In this document: in pieces, positions 22,650-31,908 of the stretch
Position numbering within the stretch: the first letter of the stretch is position 1
Layout of the letters: every line of letters begins with the position of its first letter
Source: an uncultured Erysipelotrichaceae bacterium
GTDB taxonomy: Bacteria > Bacillota_I > Bacilli_A > Erysipelotrichales > Erysipelotrichaceae
Assembly: GCA_942492995.1 (NCBI GenBank)
Contig: OW818653.1
Span: 1,260,001 to 1,292,000 of the forward strand
Length of the DNA: 32,000 bases
Direction of reading: 5' to 3'
Notes under the pieces: generated by a model
Databases searched by the model: none
Told to the model about the DNA's origin: nothing
What the model saw: the letters and a program-made list of their open reading frames with translations, nothing else
Program-made: the position numbers and the translations under genes

Positions 22650-22711
22650 TTCAAATCAATTTTATGGTCATAAAAAAACACCAACACCTTTAAATCTAGT
22701 ATAGCACATTG

Positions 22712-22728
22712 AAATGTAAGCGCTTTAT
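22712..22728. promoter_or_regulatory. cre-like operator copy 1 (AAATGTAAGCGCTTTAT) in the divergent moeA / radical-SAM promoter region
   Basis: 17-mer identical to 23862-23878. The core ATGTAAGCGCTTTAT matches 9 of the 10 specified positions of the cre consensus WTGNAANCGNWNNCW. An extended -10 (TGcTATACT, minus strand, ~22697-22705) for the moeA operon lies just beside it. Confidence 0.5.
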
Positions 22729-22780
22729 TAAAAATGTGAAATATCTTGAGTCGATTAATGTTTTGCCCTATAGTAAGATT

Positions 22781-23848
22781 ATGATGAATTTACATATCAA
22801 TGATGATGTCCCAATAAATAAGATTTATCTAGAACTTACACAACGCTGTAATCTTCAATGTAAGAACTGTTTTAGACAGAATTGGACATTACCAGAAACA
22901 CAAATGTCGCAAGAGATTTTTGACAATATACGAAATAGTTTAAACGATATCCCAAGTTTAAAAGAGATTGTGTTAGGTGGAATTGGTGAACCTACGATAC
23001 ATCCTAAATTTGTGGAATGGGTTAAATTACTACCTAATGTTGAACTTAGTGTTACGACTAACGCCTATTATTGGAAAGACGAAACGATTCAATTACTAGC
23101 AGAACGATTTAACCGCATTGTAATTTCTGTCGATGGTTTAGAATCAACATTCTACAAAATACGTAGCTTTGAACTTTCTTTACTTGAACAAAATGTAAAA
23201 CGATTAATCCATATTCGTACATCACTTGGAAAGTATGAACCATTCTTAATTACACAAATTGTATTAAGTACAGACAATGTCGATGAGATTGAAGAACTAA
23301 TCCCAATACTCGCAAAGATGGGATTTATGAAGATTATTATATCTAACTTGTTACCTCAAAACGAGTTAGATAAAGATAAAATACTATACACTTTACATGA
23401 AAATCCAAGAATGACAAAACTTCGTACAACTTGGTTAAATAAAGCTTTATCCAATCAGATTCAAATAAAATTTCCAGCAATACAACTTAAAACAGAAAGA
23501 CGTTGTAACTTCGTACATGATGGAACGCTAACCATAAACAGTGATGGTAATATTGCGCCGTGTTATCGATTTGCACATCCATCCATCGAATATGCATTTG
23601 GTAGACGTAAACAAGTTTATCCTTTCCATTATGGTAATGTCCTTAATCAATCAATTAACGAGATTTGGTTTACACGTTTATATACCGATCTACGCCTGCA
23701 AAACATTCGCAATCGTTTCCCATCATGCCCAGATTGTGATCGGGTGGATTGTTGCGACTACATCAATGACTCACTTTGTGATTGTAGAGGACAGAATCCC
23801 TCATGTGCTGATTGTTTATGGACAAGAGATTTCATTCAATGCATATAA
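22781..23848 (+). CDS. Radical SAM/SPASM-domain maturase associated with tungsten-cofactor oxidoreductases
   Basis: LELTQRCNLQCKNC (CxxxCxxC) and GGIGEPT. The Cys-rich C-terminal SPASM-like region reads CYRF...CPDCDRVDCCDY...CDCRGQNPSCADC. It lies immediately upstream of aor. Start placed at ATG 22781 (MMNLHIN). The SD is weak, so the start is uncertain. Confidence 0.7.
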   Translation: MMNLHINDDVPINKIYLELTQRCNLQCKNCFRQNWTLPETQMSQEIFDNIRNSLNDIPSLKEIVLGGIGEPTIHPKFVEWVKLLPNVELSVTTNAYYWKDETIQLLAERFNRIVISVDGLESTFYKIRSFELSLLEQNVKRLIHIRTSLGKYEPFLITQIVLSTDNVDEIEELIPILAKMGFMKIIISNLLPQNELDKDKILYTLHENPRMTKLRTTWLNKALSNQIQIKFPAIQLKTERRCNFVHDGTLTINSDGNIAPCYRFAHPSIEYAFGRRKQVYPFHYGNVLNQSINEIWFTRLYTDLRLQNIRNRFPSCPDCDRVDCCDYINDSLCDCRGQNPSCADCLWTRDFIQCI

Positions 23849-23852
23849 GACC

Positions 23853-23881
23853 TTTACTTTAAAATGTAAGCGCTTTATAAT
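23853..23881 (+). promoter_or_regulatory. Sigma-A promoter of aor overlapped by cre-like operator copy 2 (23862-23878)
   Basis: TTTACT (23853-23858) - 17 nt - TATAAT (23876-23881). The 17-mer AAATGTAAGCGCTTTAT fills the spacer and runs into the -10. Confidence 0.6.
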
Positions 23882-23887
23882 TAAGTT

Positions 23888-24012
23888 AAGTTCCGAGTTA
23901 TTCACCTCAAAAGGCAAAATAACCGATGGGTTTTATTGGAAACGATAAAGCCTCCCACTCCTTGGAAAGGGACTGCATTTTTAAAATGCGGCCCTGTACA
24001 CCAACACATAAT
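23888..24012 (+). promoter_or_regulatory. Candidate Moco/Tuco (molybdenum/tungsten cofactor) riboswitch aptamer in the aor leader
   Basis: The ~170-nt leader contains blocks I recognise from the Moco RNA motif: CCGAG (23893-23897), AAAGCCTCC (23947-23955) and GGAAAGGG (23964-23971). Local hairpins: GTTATT/AATAAC (23897-23923), CCGAT/ATTGG (23923-23939), TCCC/GGGA (23953-23972). I could not run a covariance model. Confidence 0.55.
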
Positions 24013-24037
24013 ACAAGGGTCGCCCCTTGTTTTTTTA
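24013..24037 (+). terminator. Intrinsic terminator acting as the leader's expression platform, 20 nt before the aor SD
   Basis: CAAGGG (24014-24019) - TCGC - CCCTTG (24024-24029) followed by TTTTTTT. SD AAAGGAGGA at 24047-24055 and ATG at 24058. Confidence 0.75.
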
Positions 24038-24057
24038 TGTTTGACAAAGGAGGAAAT

Positions 24058-25857
24058 ATGTCAACAACTTATAATCTTAAATTGCTTAGAGTCAATCTTA
24101 CTGAAGGAACAATCAAAACTGAAACTTTAGATGAAAAATTGGCTAAAAAATTCTTAGGGGGACGTGGTTTAGGCACTAAAATACTATTCGATGATGGTAT
24201 TGCTAAAGTAGATCCACTATCACCGGAAAACAAGCTTATCTTTATTAATGGACCATTAACTGGTGCTAATGTTCCAACTGGCGGACGTTATATGGTCGTC
24301 ACAAAATCACCTTTGAATAATATGATCGCAAGTTCAAACTCAGGTGGTGTTTGGGGTGCCCGTTTAAAATATGCTGGTTATGATGCACTAATTGTAGAAG
24401 GTAAAGCAAGTAAACCTGTTTATATTTCAATCGATGATGAAAAAGTAGAAATCAAAGATGCGAAAGAATTATGGGGCAAAACTTCTGAACATGTCGAAGA
24501 AACATTGAAAAAAGTTTATGGAGAAGAAGCTTCAGTCTTAAATATCGGTCCTGCAGGAGAAAATCTATCTCTAATGGCTGCGATTATTAATGAAGCGGAT
24601 CGTGCAGCTGGTAGAAGTGGTGTTGGAGCTGTTATGGGATCAAAATTACTAAAAGCTATCGTATGTAAATCAACTCGTACAGTTGTAGAACCTTTCGATA
24701 AAGAAGCATTACGTGAAACAGTTACTCATTCATTAAAACTTATTCGTGATAATGGTGTAACTGGAACTGGATTACCAACGTATGGTACTGCAGTATTAGT
24801 CAATATCATCAATAATATTGGTTCATTCCCAACTAAAAACTGGCAAGAATCAGAATTCGCAAATGCGGAACAAATCAGTGGCGAAACACTAAAAGAAAAA
24901 CATATCGTTAAACAAGGTTTCTGTCACCGCTGTCCTATCGGCTGTGGTCGTGTTATTAATCTAAATGGTAAAGTAGTTGGTGGTCCTGAATATGAACCAC
25001 TATGGGCTTATGGCGCAAACTGTGGTGTTGATAATTTAGAAGCCATCAATGAAGCAAACTATTGGGCTAATGAAATGGGTTTAGATGCGATTAGTTGCCC
25101 TACAACGATTGCGACTGCGATGGAATTGTATCAAAAAGGTTATATTAAAGAAGAAGACTGTGATGGCATACCTCTAGAATTTGGTAGTGCCAAGGCAATC
25201 GTAGAATGGACAAAACGCATTGGATTGGGACATAATAAATTAGCTAAATTAATGGCTCAAGGGTCATATCGTTTATGTGAAGCGTATGGTGTTCCTGAAC
25301 TTTCAATGTCTGTTAAGAAATTAGAAATGCCTGCATATGATGCACGTGGTATCCAAGGGATTGGTTTAAACTATGCGACATCAAATCGTGGTGGATGTCA
25401 TGTACGTGGCTATATGATTTCTCCTGAAATTTTAGGTCTACCTCAACTACTTGATCGTTTTGAAACTAAAGATAAAGCTATTTGGACTAAAACATTCCAA
25501 GATTTAACCGCTGTTATTGACTCAGCTGGTGTTTGTTTATTCACATCATTCGCATTGGGTGCACCAGAATATGCATCAATGATTAATGCGGCAACTGGCA
25601 CAACGTATACACCTGCTCAATTGCTTGAAGTTGGAGAACGTATCTATAATATTGAACGTTTATTTAACAAAGAAGCTGGTATGAAAGCAGAAGATGATCG
25701 TTTGCCAACACGTCTTATGAAAGAACCTATTCCTGCAGGTCCATCAAAAGGTGAAGTAAGTAAGTTGAACATTACATTGCCTGAGTATTACACTGTAAGA
25801 GGTTGGGTTAACGCATTCCCTACTGAGGAAACATTAAAACGTTTAGACTTACTCTAA
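24058..25857 (+). CDS. aor: Tungsten-containing aldehyde:ferredoxin oxidoreductase (AOR family)
   Basis: 599 aa from ATG 24058 (MSTTYNLKLLRVNLTEG...FLGGRGLG). 4Fe-4S ligands CHRCPIGCG, plus SNRGGCH and DSAGVCLF. The track ORF start at 23926 is an upstream artefact covering the leader. Confidence 0.9.
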   Translation: MSTTYNLKLLRVNLTEGTIKTETLDEKLAKKFLGGRGLGTKILFDDGIAKVDPLSPENKLIFINGPLTGANVPTGGRYMVVTKSPLNNMIASSNSGGVWGARLKYAGYDALIVEGKASKPVYISIDDEKVEIKDAKELWGKTSEHVEETLKKVYGEEASVLNIGPAGENLSLMAAIINEADRAAGRSGVGAVMGSKLLKAIVCKSTRTVVEPFDKEALRETVTHSLKLIRDNGVTGTGLPTYGTAVLVNIINNIGSFPTKNWQESEFANAEQISGETLKEKHIVKQGFCHRCPIGCGRVINLNGKVVGGPEYEPLWAYGANCGVDNLEAINEANYWANEMGLDAISCPTTIATAMELYQKGYIKEEDCDGIPLEFGSAKAIVEWTKRIGLGHNKLAKLMAQGSYRLCEAYGVPELSMSVKKLEMPAYDARGIQGIGLNYATSNRGGCHVRGYMISPEILGLPQLLDRFETKDKAIWTKTFQDLTAVIDSAGVCLFTSFALGAPEYASMINAATGTTYTPAQLLEVGERIYNIERLFNKEAGMKAEDDRLPTRLMKEPIPAGPSKGEVSKLNITLPEYYTVRGWVNAFPTEETLKRLDLL

Positions 25858-25872
25858 CCAATAAGGAGATTT

Positions 25873-26094
25873 ATGATTGAAGTTCGACTCTTTGCGTATT
25901 TTCGTGATAATAGAGGTAAAATTCTTCATTTAGATGCGCAAGAATTCCAAACTCCTCAAAGTATACTTAATCATCTTGGAATCGATATCAAAGATGTGGC
26001 TATATTATTAGTTAATGGTAGACATTCTAATGGTGAACATATTTTAAAGGATAGTGACATTGTCGCATTCTTCCCTCCTGTAGCAGGCGGATAA
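25873..26094 (+). CDS. moaD: MoaD/ThiS-family sulfur-carrier protein
   Basis: 73 aa ending in ...FFPPVAGG (C-terminal Gly-Gly). SD AAGGAG at 25862-25867. Confidence 0.8.
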   Translation: MIEVRLFAYFRDNRGKILHLDAQEFQTPQSILNHLGIDIKDVAILLVNGRHSNGEHILKDSDIVAFFPPVAGG

Positions 26095-26095
26095 T

Positions 26096-26133
26096 AAAAA
26101 GGTCTATAATCATTTAATTGGTTATAGACCTTT
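26096..26133. terminator. Bidirectional terminator between moaD and moeB
   Basis: AGGTCTATAA (26100-26109) pairs with TTATAGACCT (26122-26131). It is flanked by an A-run and a T-rich tract. The right arm overlaps the last moeB codons. Confidence 0.7.
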
Positions 26134-26940
26134 ATTATGTTTGGTACCACAAAGTATACATTCTTCATTTCTATTGATTTGAATTTCTTCAAATTCGCAA
26201 TCCAATCCATCGAATGTTAGTAATCTACCTAACATTAACTGTCCTGCATCTGTAATTAATTTAATTACTTCAAGCGCTTGGAGTGAACCGATAACACCGG
26301 TAATTGCGCCAAGTATACCAATTTCATTACAGGTTGGGAATTCATGACCTTCGTTATTATTTGGATATAAACAACGATAACACGGCGTTTGATCAGGGAT
26401 GATTGTTGTAAGTATTCCGCTAAATCCAACGACAGCCCCTTCTATAAGTGGCTTTTTTAGTTTATAACATGTGTCTGTTATTAAATAGCGAACTTTGATT
26501 GTATCTACCGCATCCACAATCACATCATATGTTTCAAATATTCCTTCAATATTATCTACTTTCAATTCAATATTATGTTCGATGATTTGTATATTGGGAT
26601 TTAAACGCGATAACTTTTCTTTTGCGGATACTGTTTTTAATGACTCCAAGTCATCAGATGAATGTAGAATCTGTCGATTTAAGTTAGAAAGCTTTATCAC
26701 ATCGTAATCCACAATTCCGAGTGTCCCAACACCAGCCGCAGCTAAATAGTAAAGGATTGGTGATCCAAGTCCTCCAGCTCCACAAACACATACTCTTGCG
26801 TTCTTTAATTTTTCTTGTCCCTCTATCCCAATATCTTTTAAAATCATTTGCCTATGATAACGTATAGAATCATTATTATTTAGTTTATCCATGTTCATAC
26901 CTTTAGATTCATTATAATTTTTAGTATTCTTTAAACTCAT
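26122..26940 (-). CDS. moeB: MoeB/ThiF-family adenylyltransferase (E1-like) for the sulfur carrier
   Basis: RYHRQMIL, GAGGLGSP (ATP loop), NLNRQIL, and zinc CxxC pairs (CYRC ... CILC). No C-terminal rhodanese domain. The start could also be the MNMDKL Met. Confidence 0.8.
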   Translation of the reverse strand: MSLKNTKNYNESKGMNMDKLNNNDSIRYHRQMILKDIGIEGQEKLKNARVCVCGAGGLGSPILYYLAAAGVGTLGIVDYDVIKLSNLNRQILHSSDDLESLKTVSAKEKLSRLNPNIQIIEHNIELKVDNIEGIFETYDVIVDAVDTIKVRYLITDTCYKLKKPLIEGAVVGFSGILTTIIPDQTPCYRCLYPNNNEGHEFPTCNEIGILGAITGVIGSLQALEVIKLITDAGQLMLGRLLTFDGLDCEFEEIQINRNEECILCGTKHNKGL

Positions 26941-27094: not shown

Positions 27095-27664
27095 TTAGAA
27101 TTTTATTGGTTCAAGTTTTAATGGTGTAGTAATACATGTATCACTTTCACTAAAGGTAGAGATAGGATATTCAACAGTCAAACCATCATAATCGACTTTT
27201 AATGTAGCTTTAATTCCTTTTGGCAACCATATTCCAATAAACCCATTATCCTGAGTAGTACGCTCTTCATCAATAATAATCTGATTGTTTTCATCGACAA
27301 TTCTAACTCTCATGGTTTGATTGAATATTTCACCACGACATGAAACTAAATTATGAATGGTACATGGGTGTACTTCATTAATATATGGTGCGATAGACAC
27401 AAAGAAAGAATCCGTAGGCAAGTCTAGACTATATTCCTTTTCATTATCATATAGAAATAGTTTATCTCCTGTAATTCGTGCCCCAACATGTGTAGGTTCA
27501 TCAATTCTTTGATCAAGATTATTCACTACTTCTTTAATTTCTGTATTTTCTAAATCAAGTTGTTTTAATACTTTGTTTACACCACTTGGTAACGAAAGAA
27601 ACCAAACTGATACGCTTATAAATACAATTCCTAAAATAATGATTAACCCAAGTTTATTTTTCAT
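27095..27664 (-). CDS. cueP: CueP-family metal (copper)-binding protein with an N-terminal membrane anchor
   Basis: 189 aa. FFVSIAPYINEVHPCTIHNLVSCRGE ... DNGFIGIWLPKG ... SDTCITTPL follows the pattern I recall for CueP (APY..xH.C..H.L..CRGE, NGFIG.WLP, D.TCIT). Confidence 0.7.
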   Translation of the reverse strand: MKNKLGLIIILGIVFISVSVWFLSLPSGVNKVLKQLDLENTEIKEVVNNLDQRIDEPTHVGARITGDKLFLYDNEKEYSLDLPTDSFFVSIAPYINEVHPCTIHNLVSCRGEIFNQTMRVRIVDENNQIIIDEERTTQDNGFIGIWLPKGIKATLKVDYDGLTVEYPISTFSESDTCITTPLKLEPIKF

Positions 27665-27696: not shown

Positions 27697-27716
27697 ATAT
27701 GTAGAACTTATGAAGA
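27697..27716 (-). promoter_or_regulatory. Direct-repeat response-regulator box (a) upstream of cueP
   Basis: Minus strand reads TCTTCATAAGT TCTACATAT, two half-sites 11 bp apart. TTCTAC lies 17 nt upstream of TATAAA (27683-27678). It overlaps the HK stop codon. Confidence 0.55.
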
Positions 27717-29108
27717 TTGTTTAATTGGAAGTATTATCGTGAAAGTAGACCCAACATTTAACTCACTTTCAACTTTAATGGTTCCTTTATGTGCTTCAAC
27801 GAGTTGTTTAACAATGGTTAAACCAATACCACTACCTCCGCTCTCACGTGTCCTGGAAGAATCTACTCGATAGAAACGTTCAAATATATAAGGTAATGAT
27901 TCTTCTGGTATGCCTATACCTGTATCTGATATTTGAATTAAGATGTTATTGTCCATTTTATTAACATTGATTTTCAGTTTCGCATTTTCATTTGAGTAAT
28001 TATATGCATTCAAAATCAAGTTATATAGCACCTGATAAATTCGACTTCGATCAGCTTGGATATTAAGTGGTATTGAGTTTAGTTCGATTGAAATAGATTG
28101 ACTTGTTTGTTTGAACTCAAGTGATTTTAAACATTCCTTAATAAGTTCATTGATATCAAATTCAGTTAGTTCTAGCTTATTGGTTAATTGTTCAATCTGA
28201 GTTAATTGTTCTAAATCTTTCACAATTCTTGTCAATTGTAATATTTCATCATGAATGCTCTTTAATCGATTATCATCCATCTTAATAATTCCATCCATAA
28301 TAGCTTCAACACTTATTTGAAGTGTTGATAAAGGTGTTCTTAGTTCATGTGCTACATCTGAAGTAATTTGTTTCTTTATACGATCTTGTTCATAAAGATT
28401 TATCGATAAGTGATTTATCGAATCAATCAACTCACTAACTTCATTAATATTTGTTTTATATTCAATCTCACTTCCGTAATGTCCATTCGCAATATTCTTC
28501 GTCGCATCAATCGTCTTTAAGATTGGTCTACTAAGTGTCTTCGCAAAGAGCACACCAACAACTACACTTGATAATATGCTTGTTAATGCAATGATCAATA
28601 AAACTGATTGAAGTTGGTTAATAAATATTACATCATCCTCTTGATAGAAATAAGGTCCGAAATAACTAATTGTGACTTTGCCTACATCCGTATTTTTGTA
28701 CTCAAGCAAATAATCATATGACACAAATTCACCTTTTTGAGTTGGAAATTGCGTTAACATACGATGTGAAATATCATTTATCAACTGTACACAAGCACTC
28801 ATATCCCAAACTTCCGCATCCCAAATAGAACTATTCTCGTTATCATAGACTTTTATAATATAACCACTATATAACGCTAGCATGCCTACTTCATGTACTT
28901 TTTCATTATCCCAAGACGAACGATTAACATCATACTGTAGTGATACTTGGGCAATAATTTGATTAATTGTTTGCGTTTGTTTATCAATAATATAATCTTT
29001 GAATCGATCATGGATAAAATAGCTCGATATTGAACTTACTAATCCAACCGCAACTAAAACAGTTAATACAATAACAGATGTAAGTTTACGACTTAAAGAT
29101 TGTTTCAT
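27708..29108 (-). CDS. Sensor histidine kinase (two TM segments, ~140-aa extracytoplasmic loop, HAMP, HisKA, HATPase)
   Basis: H-box SDVAHELRTPLS, N-box LILNAYNYS, G-boxes DTGIGI and GGSGIGL. Confidence 0.9.
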   Translation of the reverse strand: MKQSLSRKLTSVIVLTVLVAVGLVSSISSYFIHDRFKDYIIDKQTQTINQIIAQVSLQYDVNRSSWDNEKVHEVGMLALYSGYIIKVYDNENSSIWDAEVWDMSACVQLINDISHRMLTQFPTQKGEFVSYDYLLEYKNTDVGKVTISYFGPYFYQEDDVIFINQLQSVLLIIALTSILSSVVVGVLFAKTLSRPILKTIDATKNIANGHYGSEIEYKTNINEVSELIDSINHLSINLYEQDRIKKQITSDVAHELRTPLSTLQISVEAIMDGIIKMDDNRLKSIHDEILQLTRIVKDLEQLTQIEQLTNKLELTEFDINELIKECLKSLEFKQTSQSISIELNSIPLNIQADRSRIYQVLYNLILNAYNYSNENAKLKINVNKMDNNILIQISDTGIGIPEESLPYIFERFYRVDSSRTRESGGSGIGLTIVKQLVEAHKGTIKVESELNVGSTFTIILPIKQSS

Positions 29109-29800
29109 GTTAAAGACCCGAATCGATAACCTAAACCAAATACTGTTTGTATGTACATTGGTTTCTTTGGATTATCTTCAATTTTATTTCTTAAATTTTT
29201 AATATGCGTATCGATTGTACGATCATAACCATCAAAATCTGATCCAAACGCATAATCTACCAATTCTACTCGATTAAATACTCTATTTGGATGATGGATT
29301 AATACAGTTAATAGACGAAATTCATTAGGGGTTAAATGTATTTCAACATTATTTTTAAGTACACTTTTCTTATTCAAATCAATCTCTAATCCTCCATCAA
29401 ATTTCATGATTTGATATAGTGGTAAAATGGATGATTCTGATCGTCTTAGTACTGTCTCAACACGCGCATTCAATTCTTTCAAACTAAATGGCTTTGTGAT
29501 ATAGTCATCTGCCCCAAGTTTCAATCCATCAATAATGTTTTCTTCTGTCGAACGTGCAGTTAACATAATAATCGGCACTCTCGAAAATTGTCGTATTGTT
29601 TGACATACTTGTTCACCACTTAATTTTGGAATCATTAAATCAAGTAACACTAATGAAAAAGTTAAGTCTTTTGCGAGTGCAACTGCGCTAACTCCATCAT
29701 GTGTAGTGACAATATTAAAACCTTGATGCTCGAAATTCGCTTTAAGTATTTCGACAAGTTTTATTTCATCTTCAACAATCAGGATTGTTTTATTTTCCAT
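29105..29800 (-). CDS. OmpR/PhoB-family response regulator
   Basis: Receiver domain ILIVEDE...LLDLMIP...TA and winged-helix C-terminus LTPNEFRLL...VFGLGYRF. Start moved to ATG 29800 (MENKTILIVEDE), preceded by GAGG. The 4-nt overlap with the HK gene suggests translational coupling. Confidence 0.9.
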   Translation of the reverse strand: MENKTILIVEDEIKLVEILKANFEHQGFNIVTTHDGVSAVALAKDLTFSLVLLDLMIPKLSGEQVCQTIRQFSRVPIIMLTARSTEENIIDGLKLGADDYITKPFSLKELNARVETVLRRSESSILPLYQIMKFDGGLEIDLNKKSVLKNNVEIHLTPNEFRLLTVLIHHPNRVFNRVELVDYAFGSDFDGYDRTIDTHIKNLRNKIEDNPKKPMYIQTVFGLGYRFGSLT

Positions 29801-29821
29801 TCGTATAACCTCATTTAATGC

Positions 29822-29850
29822 ATTAATGCCCAACTAGGTTGAGCATTAAT
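29822..29850 (-). other. 13-bp-arm hairpin/palindrome between the lipoprotein stop and the response-regulator SD
   Basis: ATTAATGCCCAAC (29822-29834) - TAG - GTTGAGCATTAAT (29838-29850), with one mismatch and no T-tract after it on the minus strand. Confidence 0.5.
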
Positions 29851-29880: not shown

Positions 29881-30582
29881 TTATTTACCGTTAATATCAA
29901 ATGGTTTTAATAGTTTATCAACCATTACCATTTTACCGTTTTCATCCATTATCTCAACTTGTGCAAATACCCAACCTTCAACAGATTCAACATCAACACC
30001 AGCATCAACAAATGTCTGTGGATTTAATACAAACACAATATCTTTATCGTTAGTCGTAAAGTCTTTAGCCCATTCAAATACATTCCCATTACCGAAACTT
30101 AACCCATAATGATCAAGTGCTGCATGATAGCCCACTAAAGTAGGATCAATTCTGAATACTGATTCAAATGCTGGAACTACATCTTGAACATTAACGCCTT
30201 CATTCCCTAAATCATATCCAAATACAATCTTATTATCAACAAACATTCCTTCTGGCAATAAGGCAGTATCTAATCCTGCGTTAATAAAAGGTGTCGCTTC
30301 AATCTCCATTTTATAGTCGTATGGAGTTGTGAATGCGATGTCTGATGATATCGAGAATACAACTTGATTGTCTGGTGAAGTTAGTGTGTAAAATCTACTT
30401 TCATCTACAAGTTGGAAACTTACGTAATTCGCCATATCTCCAAACGCTATAATTGATGGATCTTTTTCATCAACTGGTGTTTCTACTACAGGTGTCTCTA
30501 CTACAGGTTCTTCATCTACCTTAGCAGTACATGCGCCTAATGTTAAAACTAACAAAATGGCTAAAATAATCATTCTTTTCAT
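29881..30582 (-). CDS. Uncharacterised lipoprotein (no family recognised)
   Basis: MKRMIILAILLVLTLGAC lipobox, then a PVVETPVVETPV linker. SD GAGGGAG lies 7 nt upstream. No motif that I can assign. Confidence 0.6.
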   Translation of the reverse strand: MKRMIILAILLVLTLGACTAKVDEEPVVETPVVETPVDEKDPSIIAFGDMANYVSFQLVDESRFYTLTSPDNQVVFSISSDIAFTTPYDYKMEIEATPFINAGLDTALLPEGMFVDNKIVFGYDLGNEGVNVQDVVPAFESVFRIDPTLVGYHAALDHYGLSFGNGNVFEWAKDFTTNDKDIVFVLNPQTFVDAGVDVESVEGWVFAQVEIMDENGKMVMVDKLLKPFDINGK

Positions 30583-30628
30583 GTTTTGTCTCCCTCAGTT
30601 TTCACTGCTTATAAACAATAACATAGAA

Positions 30629-30648
30629 ATATGTAGAACTTATGTAGA
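30629..30648 (-). promoter_or_regulatory. Direct-repeat response-regulator box (b) upstream of the lipoprotein gene
   Basis: Minus strand reads TCTACATAAGT TCTACATAT. TTCTAC lies 19 nt upstream of TATAAG (30613-30608). 16 nt are identical to box (a). Confidence 0.55.
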
Positions 30649-30683
30649 TATGCTTTTTTAGATATCATGCATAATTATGAATT

Positions 30684-30703
30684 CCTTCATAATTTCTACA
30701 TAA
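30684..30703 (+). promoter_or_regulatory. Direct-repeat response-regulator box (c) upstream of the micro-ORF
   Basis: Plus strand reads CCTTCATAATT TCTACATAA. TTCTAC lies 18 nt upstream of TAGAGT (30718-30723). Confidence 0.5.
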
Positions 30704-30743
30704 TATTTCGTTAGATTTAGAGTGTAAATAAGGAGGTGATTTA

Positions 30744-30839
30744 ATGTTAGGTTTAGCACTTGCGAATTGCATACATACTTGTGGACTACGTGGACAAGCA
30801 TTAGCTGATTGTATTCAAATGATGATTCATGGTATGTAG
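30744..30839 (+). CDS. Unannotated 31-aa Cys/His/Met-containing micro-protein
   Basis: Not in the ORF track. AAGGAGGTG (30729-30737) lies 6 nt before the ATG. Own translation: MLGLALANCIHTCGLRGQALADCIQMMIHGM, then stop. An in-frame TAA sits at 30729-30731. A dedicated terminator lies 27 nt downstream. Confidence 0.55.
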   Translation: MLGLALANCIHTCGLRGQALADCIQMMIHGM

Positions 30840-30865
30840 TCTTTATAAATATTAAGCGTTATAAG

Positions 30866-30897
30866 AAAAATTCATTCGTTTATAGAATGAATTTTTT
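30866..30897. terminator. Bidirectional intrinsic terminator (micro-ORF / SHOCT gene)
   Basis: AAAAATTCATTC (30866-30877) - GTTTATA - GAATGAATTTTT (30885-30896). The A-run and T-run form part of the arms. Confidence 0.8.
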
Positions 30898-30900
30898 AAT

Positions 30901-31632
30901 TTATTTAAGTGTACTTGTAATCTGTAAGAACTCTTCACGTGTGATTTCACCTCGTGCATAACGTTCTTTCGCAATATTCAACGCATTGTTAGTCGTTGGT
31001 TGACCTTGATTTCTATTATTAGAAGAAACTAAATAAACCACAGCCCCAATCACAATTGCGAATCCTAAGAATCCCATAAACATTCCTCCTGAACCAAAGT
31101 TCATCATTCGATTATTTCCATAGTCTTGTGCATAAGCAAAGCTATCATCATTACGATTATAGCGATAATTGCGACCCATCATTCCATAGTTTTGGTCTGT
31201 ATTATACCCATCATTACGATATCCACGCATCATTGGTCCAATTTGTCCATACGAATTGGTTTGATCATCACTATATCCATATTGCATAAATGTCATCATT
31301 GTAATTGGATAACCATTTAAATAATCAGCTCCAATTTGAGTATGCAAGTTGGTTAATGTTTCTGAATCATCACCACCATAATATTCATCAAGTGCTTCAT
31401 GTTGTTCAGAATCTCCAATATACGCTTCCATTACGGAATCACCAAGTTCTTCAAGTAATACTTCATCAACTAGATTAACATCAATCGCATCATTAACTGT
31501 AATCCCTAAATCAGTTCTAATTTCTGAAACAATTGCGTCAACTGAACGCATAGGTGTTTCTAATGCGCTAACACCAATAACAGTTGTTAATAGAAAAGCG
31601 ACAATAAACAATGAGGTTAATATTTTTTTCAT
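30901..31632 (-). CDS. Membrane protein: signal/anchor, acidic ectodomain, Met/Tyr/Asn/Gly-rich low-complexity tract, TM helix, C-terminal SHOCT domain
   Basis: 243 aa. The low-complexity tract reads MMTFMQYGY...GPMMRGYRNDGYNTDQNYGMMGRNYRYNRND...NNRMMNFGSGGMFMG. TM helix FLGFAIVIGAVVYLV. The SHOCT-like tail is AKERYARGEITREEFLQI. Confidence 0.65.
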   Translation of the reverse strand: MKKILTSLFIVAFLLTTVIGVSALETPMRSVDAIVSEIRTDLGITVNDAIDVNLVDEVLLEELGDSVMEAYIGDSEQHEALDEYYGGDDSETLTNLHTQIGADYLNGYPITMMTFMQYGYSDDQTNSYGQIGPMMRGYRNDGYNTDQNYGMMGRNYRYNRNDDSFAYAQDYGNNRMMNFGSGGMFMGFLGFAIVIGAVVYLVSSNNRNQGQPTTNNALNIAKERYARGEITREEFLQITSTLK

Positions 31633-31644
31633 TTATCTCCCTTC

Positions 31645-31908
31645 CTACAAACTCTTTCGAATTGTATCGTATTCTTCTTTTGTAATCTCACCTTTAGCAT
31701 ATCGTTCATTAAGGATTTCTATACTTCGATTACTCGTTTGAGATACAACATTCTTATTTGAACGATTCATCAATGTTTTAATTAGCCAAACGATTCCAAC
31801 AATAACTAGAACGATAATAATTAAACAAACTAACATTCCAAACCAACCAAAGTTGCCCATCATTCCAAATCTTGAAAATGCTTGACCACCACTAAATCCT
31901 CTCATCAT
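31645..31908 (-). CDS. Small SHOCT-domain membrane protein with a Met/Gly/Phe-rich N-terminus
   Basis: 87 aa. MMRGFSGGQAFSRFGMMGNFGWFGM, then TM helix LVCLIIIVLVIVGIVWLI, then LNERYAKGEITKEEYDTI (SHOCT). Confidence 0.7.
   Translation of the reverse strand: MMRGFSGGQAFSRFGMMGNFGWFGMLVCLIIIVLVIVGIVWLIKTLMNRSNKNVVSQTSNRSIEILNERYAKGEITKEEYDTIRKSL

What the first reader, a model, noticed from the sequence alone, without database searches (positions are those of the whole stretch)
30744..30839. Unannotated 31-codon gene encoding a Cys/His/Met peptide with its own promoter box, strong SD and terminator
The peptide MLGLALANCIHTCGLRGQALADCIQMMIHGM is too short for the ORF track but has several hallmarks of a real gene:
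- AAGGAGGTG lies 6 nt upstream of the ATG.
- An in-frame stop sits just upstream.
- A 12-bp-arm terminator lies 27 nt downstream.
- A copy of the regulon box lies upstream.

It contains three Cys (including C-x3-C with an embedded His), two His and four Met. It has no signal peptide or TM segment. I do not recognise the family.

CueP and the Met-rich SHOCT proteins are neighbours. A thiophilic-metal (Cu/Ag) binding or buffering peptide, or a small modulator of the kinase, is therefore plausible. This is inference only.
Basis: partly seen in the sequence, partly recalled or inferred. Interest (0 to 1): 0.7.

Follow-up and report, generated by a model that had tools for sequence, protein, structure and literature searches.

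The report
Conserved copper-regulon 31-residue cysteine peptide gene
The 31-codon ORF is a real gene from a widespread, unnamed family of about 30-residue Cys/Met helical peptides in Firmicutes, and its promoter carries the binding box of a two-component system that sits in copper-resistance loci, so it is probably a new small player in copper handling.

Summary
ORF 30744-30839(+), its Shine-Dalgarno (SD) site, upstream in-frame stop, terminator hairpin and upstream box are all present.

It is a real gene. A degenerate-codon scan found 53 further loci in Clostridium, Paenibacillus, Erysipelotrichaceae, Oscillospiraceae and others. Every hit is a 29-34 aa ORF starting M-x-G behind a GGAGG-type SD. 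Purifying selection is clear (dN/dS about 0.2).

No Pfam, NCBIfam, PDB or Rfam match exists. Public records call members "hypothetical protein".

49 of 54 distinct upstream regions carry the same 20-nt direct-repeat box, TCTTCATAATATCTACATAA. In 39 of those 49 a -10 hexamer starts exactly 8 nt after it. In the window the box occurs only three times: before this gene, before cueP, and before the lipoprotein-RR-HK operon.

Orthologous kinases elsewhere sit in copA/copZ/csoR operons preceded by the box. Some peptide genes abut a multicopper oxidase or CopA.

AlphaFold predicts one amphipathic helix, not a membrane helix. All conserved residues lie on one face, including C9, C13, C23 and M27. C23 is sometimes replaced by Met or His.

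Best reading: a two-component-system-activated, copper-responsive cytoplasmic peptide that binds Cu(I) at a helix-helix interface. Regulation is well supported. Copper induction and metal binding are inferred.

The parts
30684..30703 (+). 20-nt direct-repeat activator box (CCTTCATAATTTCTACATAA; hexamers TCTTCA-N5-TCTACA with an 11-bp period). This is the proposed binding site of the OmpR-type response regulator, and it overlaps the -35 region of the peptide promoter.
   Evidence: PWM score 25.9 bits. 49 of 54 distinct upstream regions of family members have the box at 15 bits or more, mostly starting 58-72 nt before the start codon. An independent metagenome set gives 20 of 22.
30712..30717 (+). 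Putative -10 hexamer TAGATT, 8 nt after the box.
   Evidence: In 39 of 49 family promoters the best TATAAT-like hexamer starts exactly 8 nt after the box. The window hexamer occupies that position. The transcription start was not mapped.
30730..30738 (+). Shine-Dalgarno sequence AAGGAGGTG, 5 nt before the ATG.
   Evidence: An equivalent purine-rich SD (GGAGG in most, AGAGG in some) sits before nearly every family member; L035 has only a weak AAGGAG.
30744..30839 (+). CDS of the 31-aa peptide MLGLALANCIHTCGLRGQALADCIQMMIHGM. It is predicted to be a single amphipathic helix. Conserved residues are G3, L6, A7, C9, I10, C13, G14, G17, L20, A21, C23, I24 and M27.
   Evidence: Family found by phmmer and codon-pattern scans. 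dN/dS is about 0.21. Frame 0 is open in 51 of 51 unique sequences, and G3 is invariant while using 4 different codons. AlphaFold pLDDT is 89 and 93, with a helix over residues 2-29/30.
30865..30903 (.). Intrinsic terminator: a 13-bp AT-rich hairpin plus a T-run. It lies between the peptide gene and the convergent SHOCT gene and is probably bidirectional.
   Evidence: -12.6 kcal/mol, z = -3.3. Hairpin plus T-run follows most family members.
30629..30648 (-). Second box copy, 66 nt before the start of the lipoprotein-RR-HK operon. This implies autoregulation of the TCS.
   Evidence: PWM score 21.9 bits.
27697..27716 (-). Third box copy, 52 nt before cueP. It overlaps the 3' end of the kinase gene.
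   Evidence: PWM score 23.5 bits.
29881..30582 (-). 233-aa lipoprotein with no known family. It is the first gene of the TCS operon and is divergent from the peptide gene.
   Evidence: No Pfam or NCBIfam hit. It is 48% identical to unnamed genes between copA and copZ in L050 and L051, and distantly similar to the gene preceding copA in L057.
29105..29833 (-). OmpR/PhoB-type response regulator, the presumed binder of the box.
   Evidence: Pfam Response_reg plus Trans_reg_C. It is 48-53% identical to the RRs in L010, L031 and L049-L051.
27708..29108 (-). Sensor histidine kinase with two TM segments, an extracytoplasmic domain of about 140 aa, and HAMP, HisKA and HATPase domains.
   Evidence: Full-length orthologues (37-48% identity) sit next to CueP/HMA or copA/copZ/csoR in five other lineages.
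27095..27664 (-). CueP-family copper-binding protein. It is a regulon member with its own box.
   Evidence: Pfam CueP 5e-45 and NCBIfam CueP_fam.
30901..31908 (-). Two Met/Gly-rich SHOCT-domain membrane proteins (243 aa and 87 aa), convergent with the peptide gene.
   Evidence: Pfam SHOCT. A SHOCT gene is adjacent to the peptide in 7 loci. In L035, box, SHOCT gene and peptide form one unit.

Best explanation
The ORF encodes a translated, cytoplasmic, roughly 30-residue single-helix peptide of an unnamed family found across Bacillota. Its monocistronic gene is switched on by the phosphorylated OmpR-type response regulator of the neighbouring two-component system. The regulator binds a direct-repeat box (TCTTCA-N5-TCTACA) that replaces the -35 element. 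The same box drives cueP and the regulator's own operon here, and copA, copZ and HMA-DsbD operons in other genomes, so the inducing signal is most probably excess copper (or silver) sensed outside the membrane. Once made, the peptide packs its conserved face against other helices, most simply copies of itself. That face carries small residues (G3, A7, G14, G17, A21), hydrophobic residues (L6, I10, L20, I24) and thiophilic residues (C9, C13, C23, M27, often H16). The packed helices bind Cu(I) through the CxxxC and CxxxM pairs and so buffer or hand on cytoplasmic copper. Shown: gene reality, family, promoter architecture, shared box, copper-gene association. Inferred: copper as the signal, oligomerisation, metal binding.
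For: **Coding**
- phmmer found 29-31 aa relatives.
- 31 genome loci and 22 metagenome loci match a codon pattern. All are 29-34 aa ORFs starting M-x-G, nearly all behind a purine-rich SD, although start, stop and SD were not in the pattern.
- dN/dS is about 0.21.
- At codons the pattern left free, entropy follows pos3 > pos1 > pos2. G3 is invariant with 4 codons. Other frames carry stops.

**Regulation**
- The box is present in 49 of 54 distinct upstream regions, with the -10 exactly 8 nt after it in 39 of 49.
- An independent test set gives 20 of 22.
- The window has three hits only (peptide, cueP, TCS operon), against 0.01 expected.

**Copper link**
- Kinase orthologues lie in copA-copZ-(csoR)-RR-HK operons, with the box in front.
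- L031 reads copA, box-peptide, RR, HK.
- L057 has boxes before the copA operon and a TlpA/DsbD pair.
- The peptide lies next to a multicopper oxidase in L009, L057 and L070.
- The box half-site and 11-bp spacing match the proven C. glutamicum CopR site TGAAGATTTnnTGAAGATTT read on the other strand (PMC3140484).

**Metal ligands**
- C9, C13 and M27 are invariant. Residue 23 is C43/M6/H1/F1 of 51.

**Structure**
- One helix, pLDDT 89-93.
- All 13 conserved residues fall on heptad positions a, d, e and g.
- It is not a TM helix.
Against: - There are no expression, translation or metal-binding data of any kind.
- Only 13 of 59 loci show recognisable copper genes within the fetched DNA. Most members are solitary, although the stretches are short.
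- Three Cys per 31 residues is few for a storage protein. H11 is Gln in many members, and M26 is not invariant.
- AlphaFold monomer helices for short peptides are weak evidence. Oligomerisation was not modelled.
- The TCS signal is inferred from neighbours. Some box-preceded genes (NlpC/P60, TlpA/DsbD, DUF6803) would also fit a wider envelope or thiol stress response.
- The kinase scores below every NCBIfam equivalog cut-off. BaeS scores above the heavy-metal sensor model.
Confidence: 0.5

Rival explanations
1. Feedback or connector peptide. The helix is made on TCS activation and docks onto a helical partner, such as the kinase DHp bundle, the RR or CopA, to tune signalling or efflux. The Cys and Met residues serve as a metal-dependent switch or merely as packing residues. 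In function this would resemble Sda acting on KinA or MgrB acting on PhoQ.
For: - The gene is the most consistently box-associated target.
- It lies directly next to the RR-HK pair in the window, L010, L031 and L056.
- A single amphipathic helix with a small-residue face suits tight docking on another helix.
Against: - Two divergent paralogues occur in one genome (L018/L040 and L034/L046).
- Adjacency to a multicopper oxidase without a nearby TCS fits an effector better than a dedicated regulator.
- Cys-to-Met and Cys-to-His swaps at residue 23 point to ligand chemistry.
- There is no TM helix as in MgrB.
Confidence: 0.2
2. Copper-stress protectant that works through thiol chemistry rather than metal storage. 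The peptide would be a sacrificial or redox-buffering thiol peptide, or a helper that shields or repairs Fe-S or thiol proteins during copper or oxidative stress.
For: - The same box precedes thiol-disulfide genes (TlpA-like plus DsbD in L057; HMA-DsbD in L050 and L051).
- Cysteines are conserved.
Against: - The strict conservation of Gly/Ala spacing and of M27 on one helical face implies a defined structure or interface rather than generic thiol supply.
- Met substitutes for Cys23, which keeps metal affinity but loses redox activity.
Confidence: 0.12
3. Precursor of an exported or modified peptide, such as a chalkophore-like RiPP or a signalling peptide.
For: - It is short and contains Cys.
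- It is linked to copper.
- A metagenomic 416-aa protein carries six similar units separated by KR sites.
Against: - There is no leader/core division and no signal peptide.
- No recurring maturase, protease or exporter appears among neighbours in 59 loci.
- The whole length is conserved.
Confidence: 0.05
4. Not a protein. The region would be a leader, an sRNA or a chance ORF.
For: - It is very short.
- There is no experimental proof of translation.
Against: - Frame, start, SD and amino-acid pattern are conserved with synonymous turnover in 51 unique sequences.
- A terminator and a convergent gene follow it, so there is nothing downstream to attenuate.
- There is no Rfam hit.
Confidence: 0.02

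Closest known systems
CopRS regulon of Corynebacterium glutamicum, and more loosely CusRS of E. coli: copper-sensing OmpR-type two-component systems
   Same: - An OmpR-family RR with a membrane kinase, autoregulated from a divergent intergenic region.
- A direct-repeat site with an 11-bp period. The half-site TCTTCA equals the CopR motif TGAAGA on the other strand (PMC3140484).
- Targets include a copper ATPase and possibly a multicopper oxidase (adjacent, no box scored), plus proteins of unknown function.
   Different: - A different phylum, and only generic family-level similarity of the HK and RR. All NCBIfam equivalog scores are below cut-off.
- The box sits at the -35 position rather than far upstream.
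- The regulon includes a conserved 30-aa peptide, CueP and SHOCT proteins, none of which is reported for CopRS.
Copper storage proteins Csp1/Csp3 (four-helix bundles with a Cys-lined core). This comparison rests on my own knowledge of the family.
   Same: - Helical.
- CxxxC spacing places thiols on one helical face that points into a helix-helix interface.
- A cytoplasmic copper-buffering role is proposed.
   Different: - One 30-residue helix with 3 Cys, against about 120 or more residues with 13-19 Cys.
- No sequence similarity (no Pfam hit).
- Any bundle would have to form by self-association, which is untested.
MymT, the small copper-inducible metallothionein of Mycobacterium tuberculosis, and the CopZ/Atx1 chaperones. 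This comparison rests on my own knowledge of these families.
   Same: - Small cytoplasmic proteins.
- Linked to copper.
- Ligands based on Cys.
   Different: - MymT is Cys-dense with CxC/CxxC motifs and little regular structure.
- CopZ has the HMA ferredoxin-like fold with MxCxxC.
- This peptide has neither.
Small proteins induced by, and acting on, two-component systems (MgrB on PhoQ, Sda on KinA). This comparison rests on my own knowledge.
   Same: - Tiny gene.
- Transcribed from a promoter controlled by the TCS, next to the TCS genes.
   Different: - MgrB is a membrane protein, whereas this peptide is not.
- There is no evidence of interaction.
- Metal-ligand residues are conserved here.

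Membership tests
Regulon of a copper-locus OmpR-type two-component system (CopRS-like) | RR-type direct-repeat site at a fixed position upstream of the gene | tested here: met
   The box is at 30684-30703, with the -10 8 nt after it. The same geometry holds in 39 of 49 family promoters.
Regulon of a copper-locus OmpR-type two-component system (CopRS-like) | The same site lies in front of the TCS operon and of recognised copper genes | tested here: met
   Window: the cueP and lipoprotein-RR-HK promoters. L049-L051 and L057: box before the RR, HMA-DsbD/copA operons and the copA operon.
Regulon of a copper-locus OmpR-type two-component system (CopRS-like) | Transcription induced by copper and dependent on the RR and HK | not testable with these tools
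   Needs RNA measurements with and without Cu, and mutants.
Regulon of a copper-locus OmpR-type two-component system (CopRS-like) | The kinase or regulator belongs to a curated heavy-metal sensor family | tested here: inconclusive
   NCBIfam cztS_silS_copS scores 181 bits against a cut-off of 293, and cztR_silR_copR scores 158 against 279. BaeS and PhoB models score higher, also below cut-off. The sensor domain has no PDB relative.
HMA/CopZ copper chaperones | HMA domain with an MxCxxC motif | tested here: not met
   No Pfam HMA hit for any of 36 members. The motif is CxxxC, and the model is a single helix.
Copper storage proteins (Csp, DUF326-type Cys repeats) | Four-helix bundle with many Cys repeats, recognisable by profile | tested here: not met
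   No Pfam hit. The peptide has 31 residues, 3 Cys and one helix. Only the CxxxC-on-a-helix principle is shared.
Membrane small proteins and type I toxins (MgrB-like, KdpF-like) | A hydrophobic transmembrane helix | tested here: not met
   The best 19-residue Kyte-Doolittle mean is 0.4-1.2. The Hessa insertion energy is +6 to +13 kcal/mol in 36 members.
RiPP precursors (methanobactin, bufferin, sactipeptide or ranthipeptide type) | Co-located maturase (MbnBC/DUF692 or radical SAM) and exporter recurring across loci | tested here: not met
   No such gene recurs among neighbours. The radical SAM/SPASM gene at 22709-23848 pairs with the aldehyde ferredoxin oxidoreductase gene and is absent from other loci.
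Leader peptide or attenuator | A co-directional downstream gene whose expression the ORF controls | tested here: not met
   In the window a terminator and a convergent gene follow the ORF. Most members are monocistronic with their own terminator.
Known RNA families | An Rfam covariance-model match | tested here: not met
   Only two chance-level snoRNA matches (E = 0.2-0.8) in 30400-31100.

The most novel reading that the evidence does not exclude
The peptide founds a new class of copper-handling protein. It would be a single 30-residue helix that self-assembles, perhaps as an antiparallel dimer or a four-helix bundle, around Cu(I) bound by CxxxC and CxxxM pairs. That would make it a minimal "one-helix copper store or chaperone". 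It would also be the most conserved output of a previously uncharacterised copper-sensing two-component system that spans Clostridia, Erysipelotrichia and Paenibacillus and has a definable DNA box.
Probability: 0.3. Interest if true: 0.8.

Novelty: new variant of a known kind. Interest (0 to 1): 0.64.

Why it matters
- Small proteins under 50 residues are routinely missed, and very few have a predicted regulator, signal and chemistry.
- This case offers a fully specified, testable module: a 20-nt activator box, a fixed promoter geometry, a cognate TCS and a 30-residue product that can be made by peptide synthesis.
- If the peptide binds Cu(I), it adds a new and minimal component to Gram-positive copper homeostasis. 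Current descriptions centre on CsoR/CopY, CopA and CopZ.
- It would also give a natural counterpart to designed Cys-containing coiled-coil metal sites.
- The box defines a regulon (peptide, CueP, SHOCT proteins, an unknown lipoprotein, DUF6803, CopA, HMA-DsbD). That regulon assigns a physiological context to several families of unknown function.
- The box could also serve as a copper-responsive promoter part in clostridia.

Tried and rejected
- **The search for related loci with alignment A1:** A hand-made degenerate codon pattern replaced it.
- **Pfam, NCBIfam, PDB profile and Rfam searches:** no hits.
- **Long phmmer hits P0007, P0008, P0011, P0013 and P0017:** the three inspected (P0007, P0011, P0017) are RCC1-type repeats sharing only "HTCGLR..G...CWG". 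P0008 and P0013 have the same hit pattern. All five were rejected as spurious.
- **AlphaFold with the 36-sequence alignment A2:** It was rerun with the permitted 31-sequence alignment A3.
- **Helix-turn-helix hairpin idea:** suggested by the internal 14-residue repeat LAxCIxx[C/M]G and by G14/G17. AlphaFold did not support it, giving one continuous helix in both runs. It is not excluded for a metal-bound form.
- **Transmembrane peptide idea:** rejected on hydrophobicity.
- **ABC-transporter association:** 6 loci have one, which is no more than expected for such common genes.
- **Literature searches:** searches for SHOCT with copper, CueP with Gram-positive TCS, and for the peptide's sequence strings found nothing that describes this family.
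- **Further box copy before the SHOCT genes:** looked for using the longer locus L001. None found.
Full report
**1. Observation**

  - The ATG is at 30744 and the stop at 30837-30839.
  - The product is MLGLALANCIHTCGLRGQALADCIQMMIHGM.
  - AAGGAGGTG lies at 30730-30738, 5 nt before the ATG.
  - An in-frame TAA lies at 30729-30731.
- A 13-bp hairpin at 30865-30897 is followed by a T-run. It folds at -12.6 kcal/mol, z = -3.3 against shuffles.
  - It lies between this gene and the convergent SHOCT gene, which ends at 30901. It can therefore serve both genes.
- Pfam confirms the neighbours:
  - CueP (27095-27664, minus strand);
  - an HAMP/HisKA/HATPase kinase (27708-29108, minus strand);
  - an OmpR-type regulator (29105-29833, minus strand);
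  - a 233-aa lipoprotein with no family (29881-30582, minus strand);
  - two SHOCT proteins (30901-31908, minus strand).

**2. It is a gene, and it belongs to a family**

- The exact peptide is already a called gene on 11 public contigs from near-identical strains, all with the same context.
- phmmer against 1.84 billion representatives found seven 29-31 aa relatives at 61-87% identity.
- I turned the shared motif C-I-[H/Q]-x-C-G-x2-G-x2-L-A-x2-I-x-M-M into a degenerate codon pattern of about 50 bits.
  - It hit 31 places in species-representative genomes.
  - It hit 22 places in metagenome contigs.
- The pattern says nothing about start, stop or ribosome-binding site. Even so, every hit lies in a 29-34 aa ORF that begins M-x-G.
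  - Nearly all sit 5-8 nt behind a GGAGG- or AGAGG-type site.
  - L035 has only a weak AAGGAG.
- Hosts include Clostridium (C. carboxidivorans P7, C. vincentii, C. algoriphilum), Paenibacillus (P. wynnii, P. rhizophilus), Erysipelotrichaceae, Oscillospiraceae, Eubacteriaceae and Acidaminobacteraceae/Fusibacter.
- Evidence of purifying selection:
  - Pairwise dN/dS is about 0.21.
  - The pattern itself forces some conservation, so I repeated the test on the 14 codons it leaves free. Entropy follows pos3 (1.40) > pos1 (1.08) > pos2 (0.85).
  - G3 is invariant while using four codons, and L6 uses seven codons.
  - The reading frame is open in 51 of 51 unique sequences, whereas the other frames mostly contain stops.
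- The non-coding reading is therefore effectively excluded. No Rfam family matches.

**3. The family is undescribed**

- No Pfam or NCBIfam model matches the window peptide. No Pfam model matches any of 36 members.
- A profile of the family finds nothing in the PDB.
- Where public records name members, the name is "hypothetical" or "uncharacterized" protein. Examples are EET88996.1/C6PPB8, PRR83469.1 and MDQ0193054.1.
- Full-text searches, including searches for sequence strings, found no description.
- This is absence of evidence in the libraries I could search. It does not prove the family was never noted.

**4. The promoter is the most informative part**

- When the upstream regions are lined up, nearly all members show the same 20-nt element, consensus TCTTCATAATATCTACATAA.
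  - It consists of two hexamers, TCTTCA and TCTACA, 11 bp apart.
- A weight matrix of 21.6 bits was built from 32 genome loci.
  - The box is present at 15 bits or more in 49 of 54 distinct upstream regions.
  - In 44 of those 49 it starts 58-72 nt before the start codon.
  - In 39 of 49 the best TATAAT-like hexamer begins exactly 8 nt after it.
- The metagenome loci were not used for training. They reproduce the result in 20 of 22 cases.
- The geometry is an 11-bp direct repeat that overlaps the -35 position next to a good -10 hexamer. From general knowledge of PhoB/OmpR-type regulators, this is what a class II activator site looks like.
- In the 32-kb window the matrix gives three hits of at least 9 bits and no others:
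  - the peptide promoter (25.9 bits);
  - 27697-27716(-), 52 nt before cueP (23.5 bits);
  - 30629-30648(-), 66 nt before the lipoprotein-RR-HK operon (21.9 bits).
- Shuffled windows give 0.01 hits of at least 20 bits.
- The neighbouring regulator is therefore the obvious candidate binder, and it would be autoregulated.

**5. Link to copper**

The kinase has full-length orthologues that include the extracytoplasmic domain. Their contexts are:

| Locus | Host | Kinase identity | Context |
|---|---|---|---|
| L010 | Erysipelotrichaceae-like | 48% | SHOCT, HMA, CueP, HK, RR |
| L031 | Oscillospiraceae | 37% | copA (with C-terminal HMA), box-peptide, RR, HK, box-DUF6803 |
| L049 | Clostridium aminobutyricum | 45% | copA, copZ, RR, HK; box before the RR and before a YtkA gene |
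| L050 | Sinanaerobacter | 47% | box before the HMA-DsbD gene, then csoR, copA, unknown, copZ, RR, HK |
| L051 | Anaerosacchariphilus | 46% | box, then HMA-DsbD, copA, unknown, copZ, RR, HK |

- L057 carries five boxes:
  - one before the peptide;
  - one before an unknown-plus-copA operon;
  - one about 400 nt upstream of a TlpA-like/DsbD pair (13.9 bits);
  - one before an NlpC/P60 gene;
  - one before a 102-aa unknown.
- The peptide gene is immediately upstream of a multicopper oxidase in L009 and immediately downstream of one in L057 and L070.
- In L035 the peptide follows a small SHOCT gene, and the box sits in front of the pair.
- The half-site and spacing equal the experimentally proven CopR site of Corynebacterium glutamicum, TGAAGATTTnnTGAAGATTT, read on the complementary strand as TCTTCA-N5-TCTTCA (PMC3140484).
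  - This is a resemblance, not proof of orthology.
- Caveats:
  - Only 13 of 59 loci show copper genes within the DNA I hold, and many stretches are short.
  - The kinase and regulator reach no curated equivalog threshold.
  - The sensor domain has no solved relative.
  - No expression data exist.
- Copper or silver as the signal is therefore a strong inference from five independent gene neighbourhoods. It is not an observation.

**6. The product**

- Conserved residues:
  - invariant or nearly so: G3, L6, A7, C9, I10, C13, G14, G17, L20, A21, I24, M27;
  - C23 in 43 of 51 members, otherwise Met (6), His (1) or Phe (1);
  - H11 is often Gln, residue 16 is often His, and M26 varies.
- AlphaFold2 gives one continuous helix.
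  - With 9 sequences: residues 2-30, pLDDT 89.
  - With 31 sequences: residues 2-29, pLDDT 93, and four of five models above 91.
- On a heptad wheel, all 13 conserved residues fall on positions a, d, e and g, and none on b, c or f:
  - a: G3, I10, G17, I24;
  - d: L6, C13, L20, M27;
  - e: A7, G14, A21;
  - g: C9, (H16), C23.
- The peptide is not a membrane helix. The best 19-residue insertion energy is +6 to +13 kcal/mol.
- One face of an amphipathic helix about 42 Å long is thus conserved. It mixes very small residues, aliphatic residues and thiol/thioether residues in CxxxC (9/13) and CxxxM (23/27) pairs.
- My inference is that this face is a helix-helix interface that holds a thiophilic metal.
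  - The replacement of Cys23 by Met or His keeps a soft-metal ligand. That fits Cu(I) better than Zn or Fe-S.
  - The simplest arrangement is a homo-oligomer. In an antiparallel dimer, C9 of one chain would be level with C23 of the other.
  - This arrangement is unmodelled and untested.
- A hairpin form is suggested by the 14-residue internal repeat and by G14/G17. AlphaFold did not predict it, but it cannot be excluded for the metal-bound state.

**7. Mechanism proposed, with the status of each step**

1. Excess extracytoplasmic copper activates the kinase. (Inferred.)
2. The phosphorylated regulator binds the box. (Inferred from the shared box and autoregulatory layout. The box and its geometry are shown.)
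3. Binding activates cueP, its own operon and the peptide gene. (Inferred.)
4. The short mRNA, with a leader of about 20-25 nt, is translated efficiently from a strong SD. (Sequence shown; translation inferred from conservation.)
5. The peptide assembles through its conserved face and binds Cu(I). It then buffers the metal or passes it to CopZ, CopA or another acceptor. (Inferred.)

Overall confidence in this chain is about 0.5. Confidence that it is a real protein-coding gene is above 0.95. Confidence that it belongs to this TCS regulon is about 0.85.

**8. Rivals**

- A docking or feedback peptide for the kinase, regulator or ATPase (0.2).
- A thiol-based protectant without defined metal storage (0.12).
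- An exported or modified peptide (0.05). No maturase or exporter recurs.
- A non-coding element (0.02).

**9. Comparison and novelty**

- In how it works, the locus is closest to the CopRS and CusRS type of copper regulon.
- In its proposed chemistry, it is closest to the Cys-lined helical copper stores (Csp), to small metallothioneins such as MymT and to CopZ.
- It fails the defining tests for HMA, Csp, membrane small proteins, RiPP precursors and leader peptides (see the membership table).
- I rate it a new variant of a known kind: an unnamed small-protein family placed in a recognisable type of regulon, with an unusual single-helix architecture.
- Interest is 0.64.
  - The family-wide conservation of a complete promoter-peptide module across classes of Bacillota is unexpected and directly testable.
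  - The function is still inferred.

**10. Origin of the window**

- Closest relatives of the locus are Erysipelotrichaceae metagenome-assembled genomes.
- The kinase is 63% identical to a protein labelled Erysipelothrix sp..
- The species-representative genome collection held no identical peptide.

Noticed in passing
window 29881-30582 (-); L050 6240-6926; L051 6393-7067; L057 8627-9298: The 233-aa lipoprotein that heads the TCS operon has no Pfam or NCBIfam family. It is 48% identical to unnamed genes that sit between copA and copZ in Sinanaerobacter and Anaerosacchariphilus. It is distantly similar (24% identity, E = 1e-9, with an internal repeat) to the gene preceding copA in L057. It looks like an undescribed extracytoplasmic protein family associated with copper loci.
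   Followed up: partly
P0003 / L052 1627-2877: A 416-aa protein on a short metagenome contig contains six repeats, NCQHLCCGLTG[KQ]ALEDCL. The repeats resemble residues 4-25 of the peptide and are separated by KR/KRR sites, like a processed polyprotein. It was the top phmmer hit (E = 5e-14, summed over repeats). Origin and relationship (homology or convergence) are unknown.
   Followed up: partly
L031 4401-4945: A box copy (22.4 bits) lies 65 nt before a 159-aa membrane protein of family DUF6803, directly after the RR-HK pair. This places a family of unknown function in the same regulon.
   Followed up: partly
L057 3490-3601 and 8126-8340: Two divergent pairs of boxes lie in one metagenome locus. 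They flank an NlpC/P60 peptidoglycan hydrolase gene, the region upstream of a TlpA-like thioredoxin plus DsbD pair, a 102-aa unknown and the copA operon. The regulon may reach into cell-wall and thiol-disulfide functions.
   Followed up: partly
L018 and L040 (same MAG, CAAEXF01); L034 and L046 (same MAG, WSYG01): Two diverged paralogues of the peptide gene occur in a single genome. Each has its own box.
   Followed up: no
L026 (JBLNDT010000070.1): A contig assigned to a Solirubrobacterales (Actinomycetota) MAG carries a typical AT-rich, Clostridium-like copy with box and SD. This is probably a binning error rather than a true actinobacterial member.
   Followed up: no
window 22709-26940: A radical SAM/SPASM gene (22709-23848) lies directly upstream of an aldehyde:ferredoxin oxidoreductase gene (23926-25857). 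A ThiF/MoeB-like gene (26122-26940, minus strand) follows. This may be a tungsto- or molybdopterin enzyme with its maturation genes. It appears unrelated to the peptide.
   Followed up: no
L001 7308-8147 (just beyond the window's 3' end): A nitroreductase-family gene (TM1586_NiRdase) lies upstream of the two SHOCT genes on the same strand. From my own memory, a copper-induced nitroreductase (CinD) is known in Lactococcus lactis. No box scoring at least 10 bits was found before it (the nearest, 10.3 bits, lies more than 400 nt upstream).
   Followed up: partly
window 30658-30801 (-) and 30665-30772 (-): Antisense ORFs of 47 aa and 35 aa overlap the peptide gene and its promoter. Two of the three reverse frames carry stops in most family members, so these ORFs are unlikely to be conserved.
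   Followed up: partly
L021, L053 and L061: Three family members lack a scoring box. L053 also has Phe at residue 23 and a C-terminal Cys. These could be differently regulated or decaying copies.
   Followed up: no
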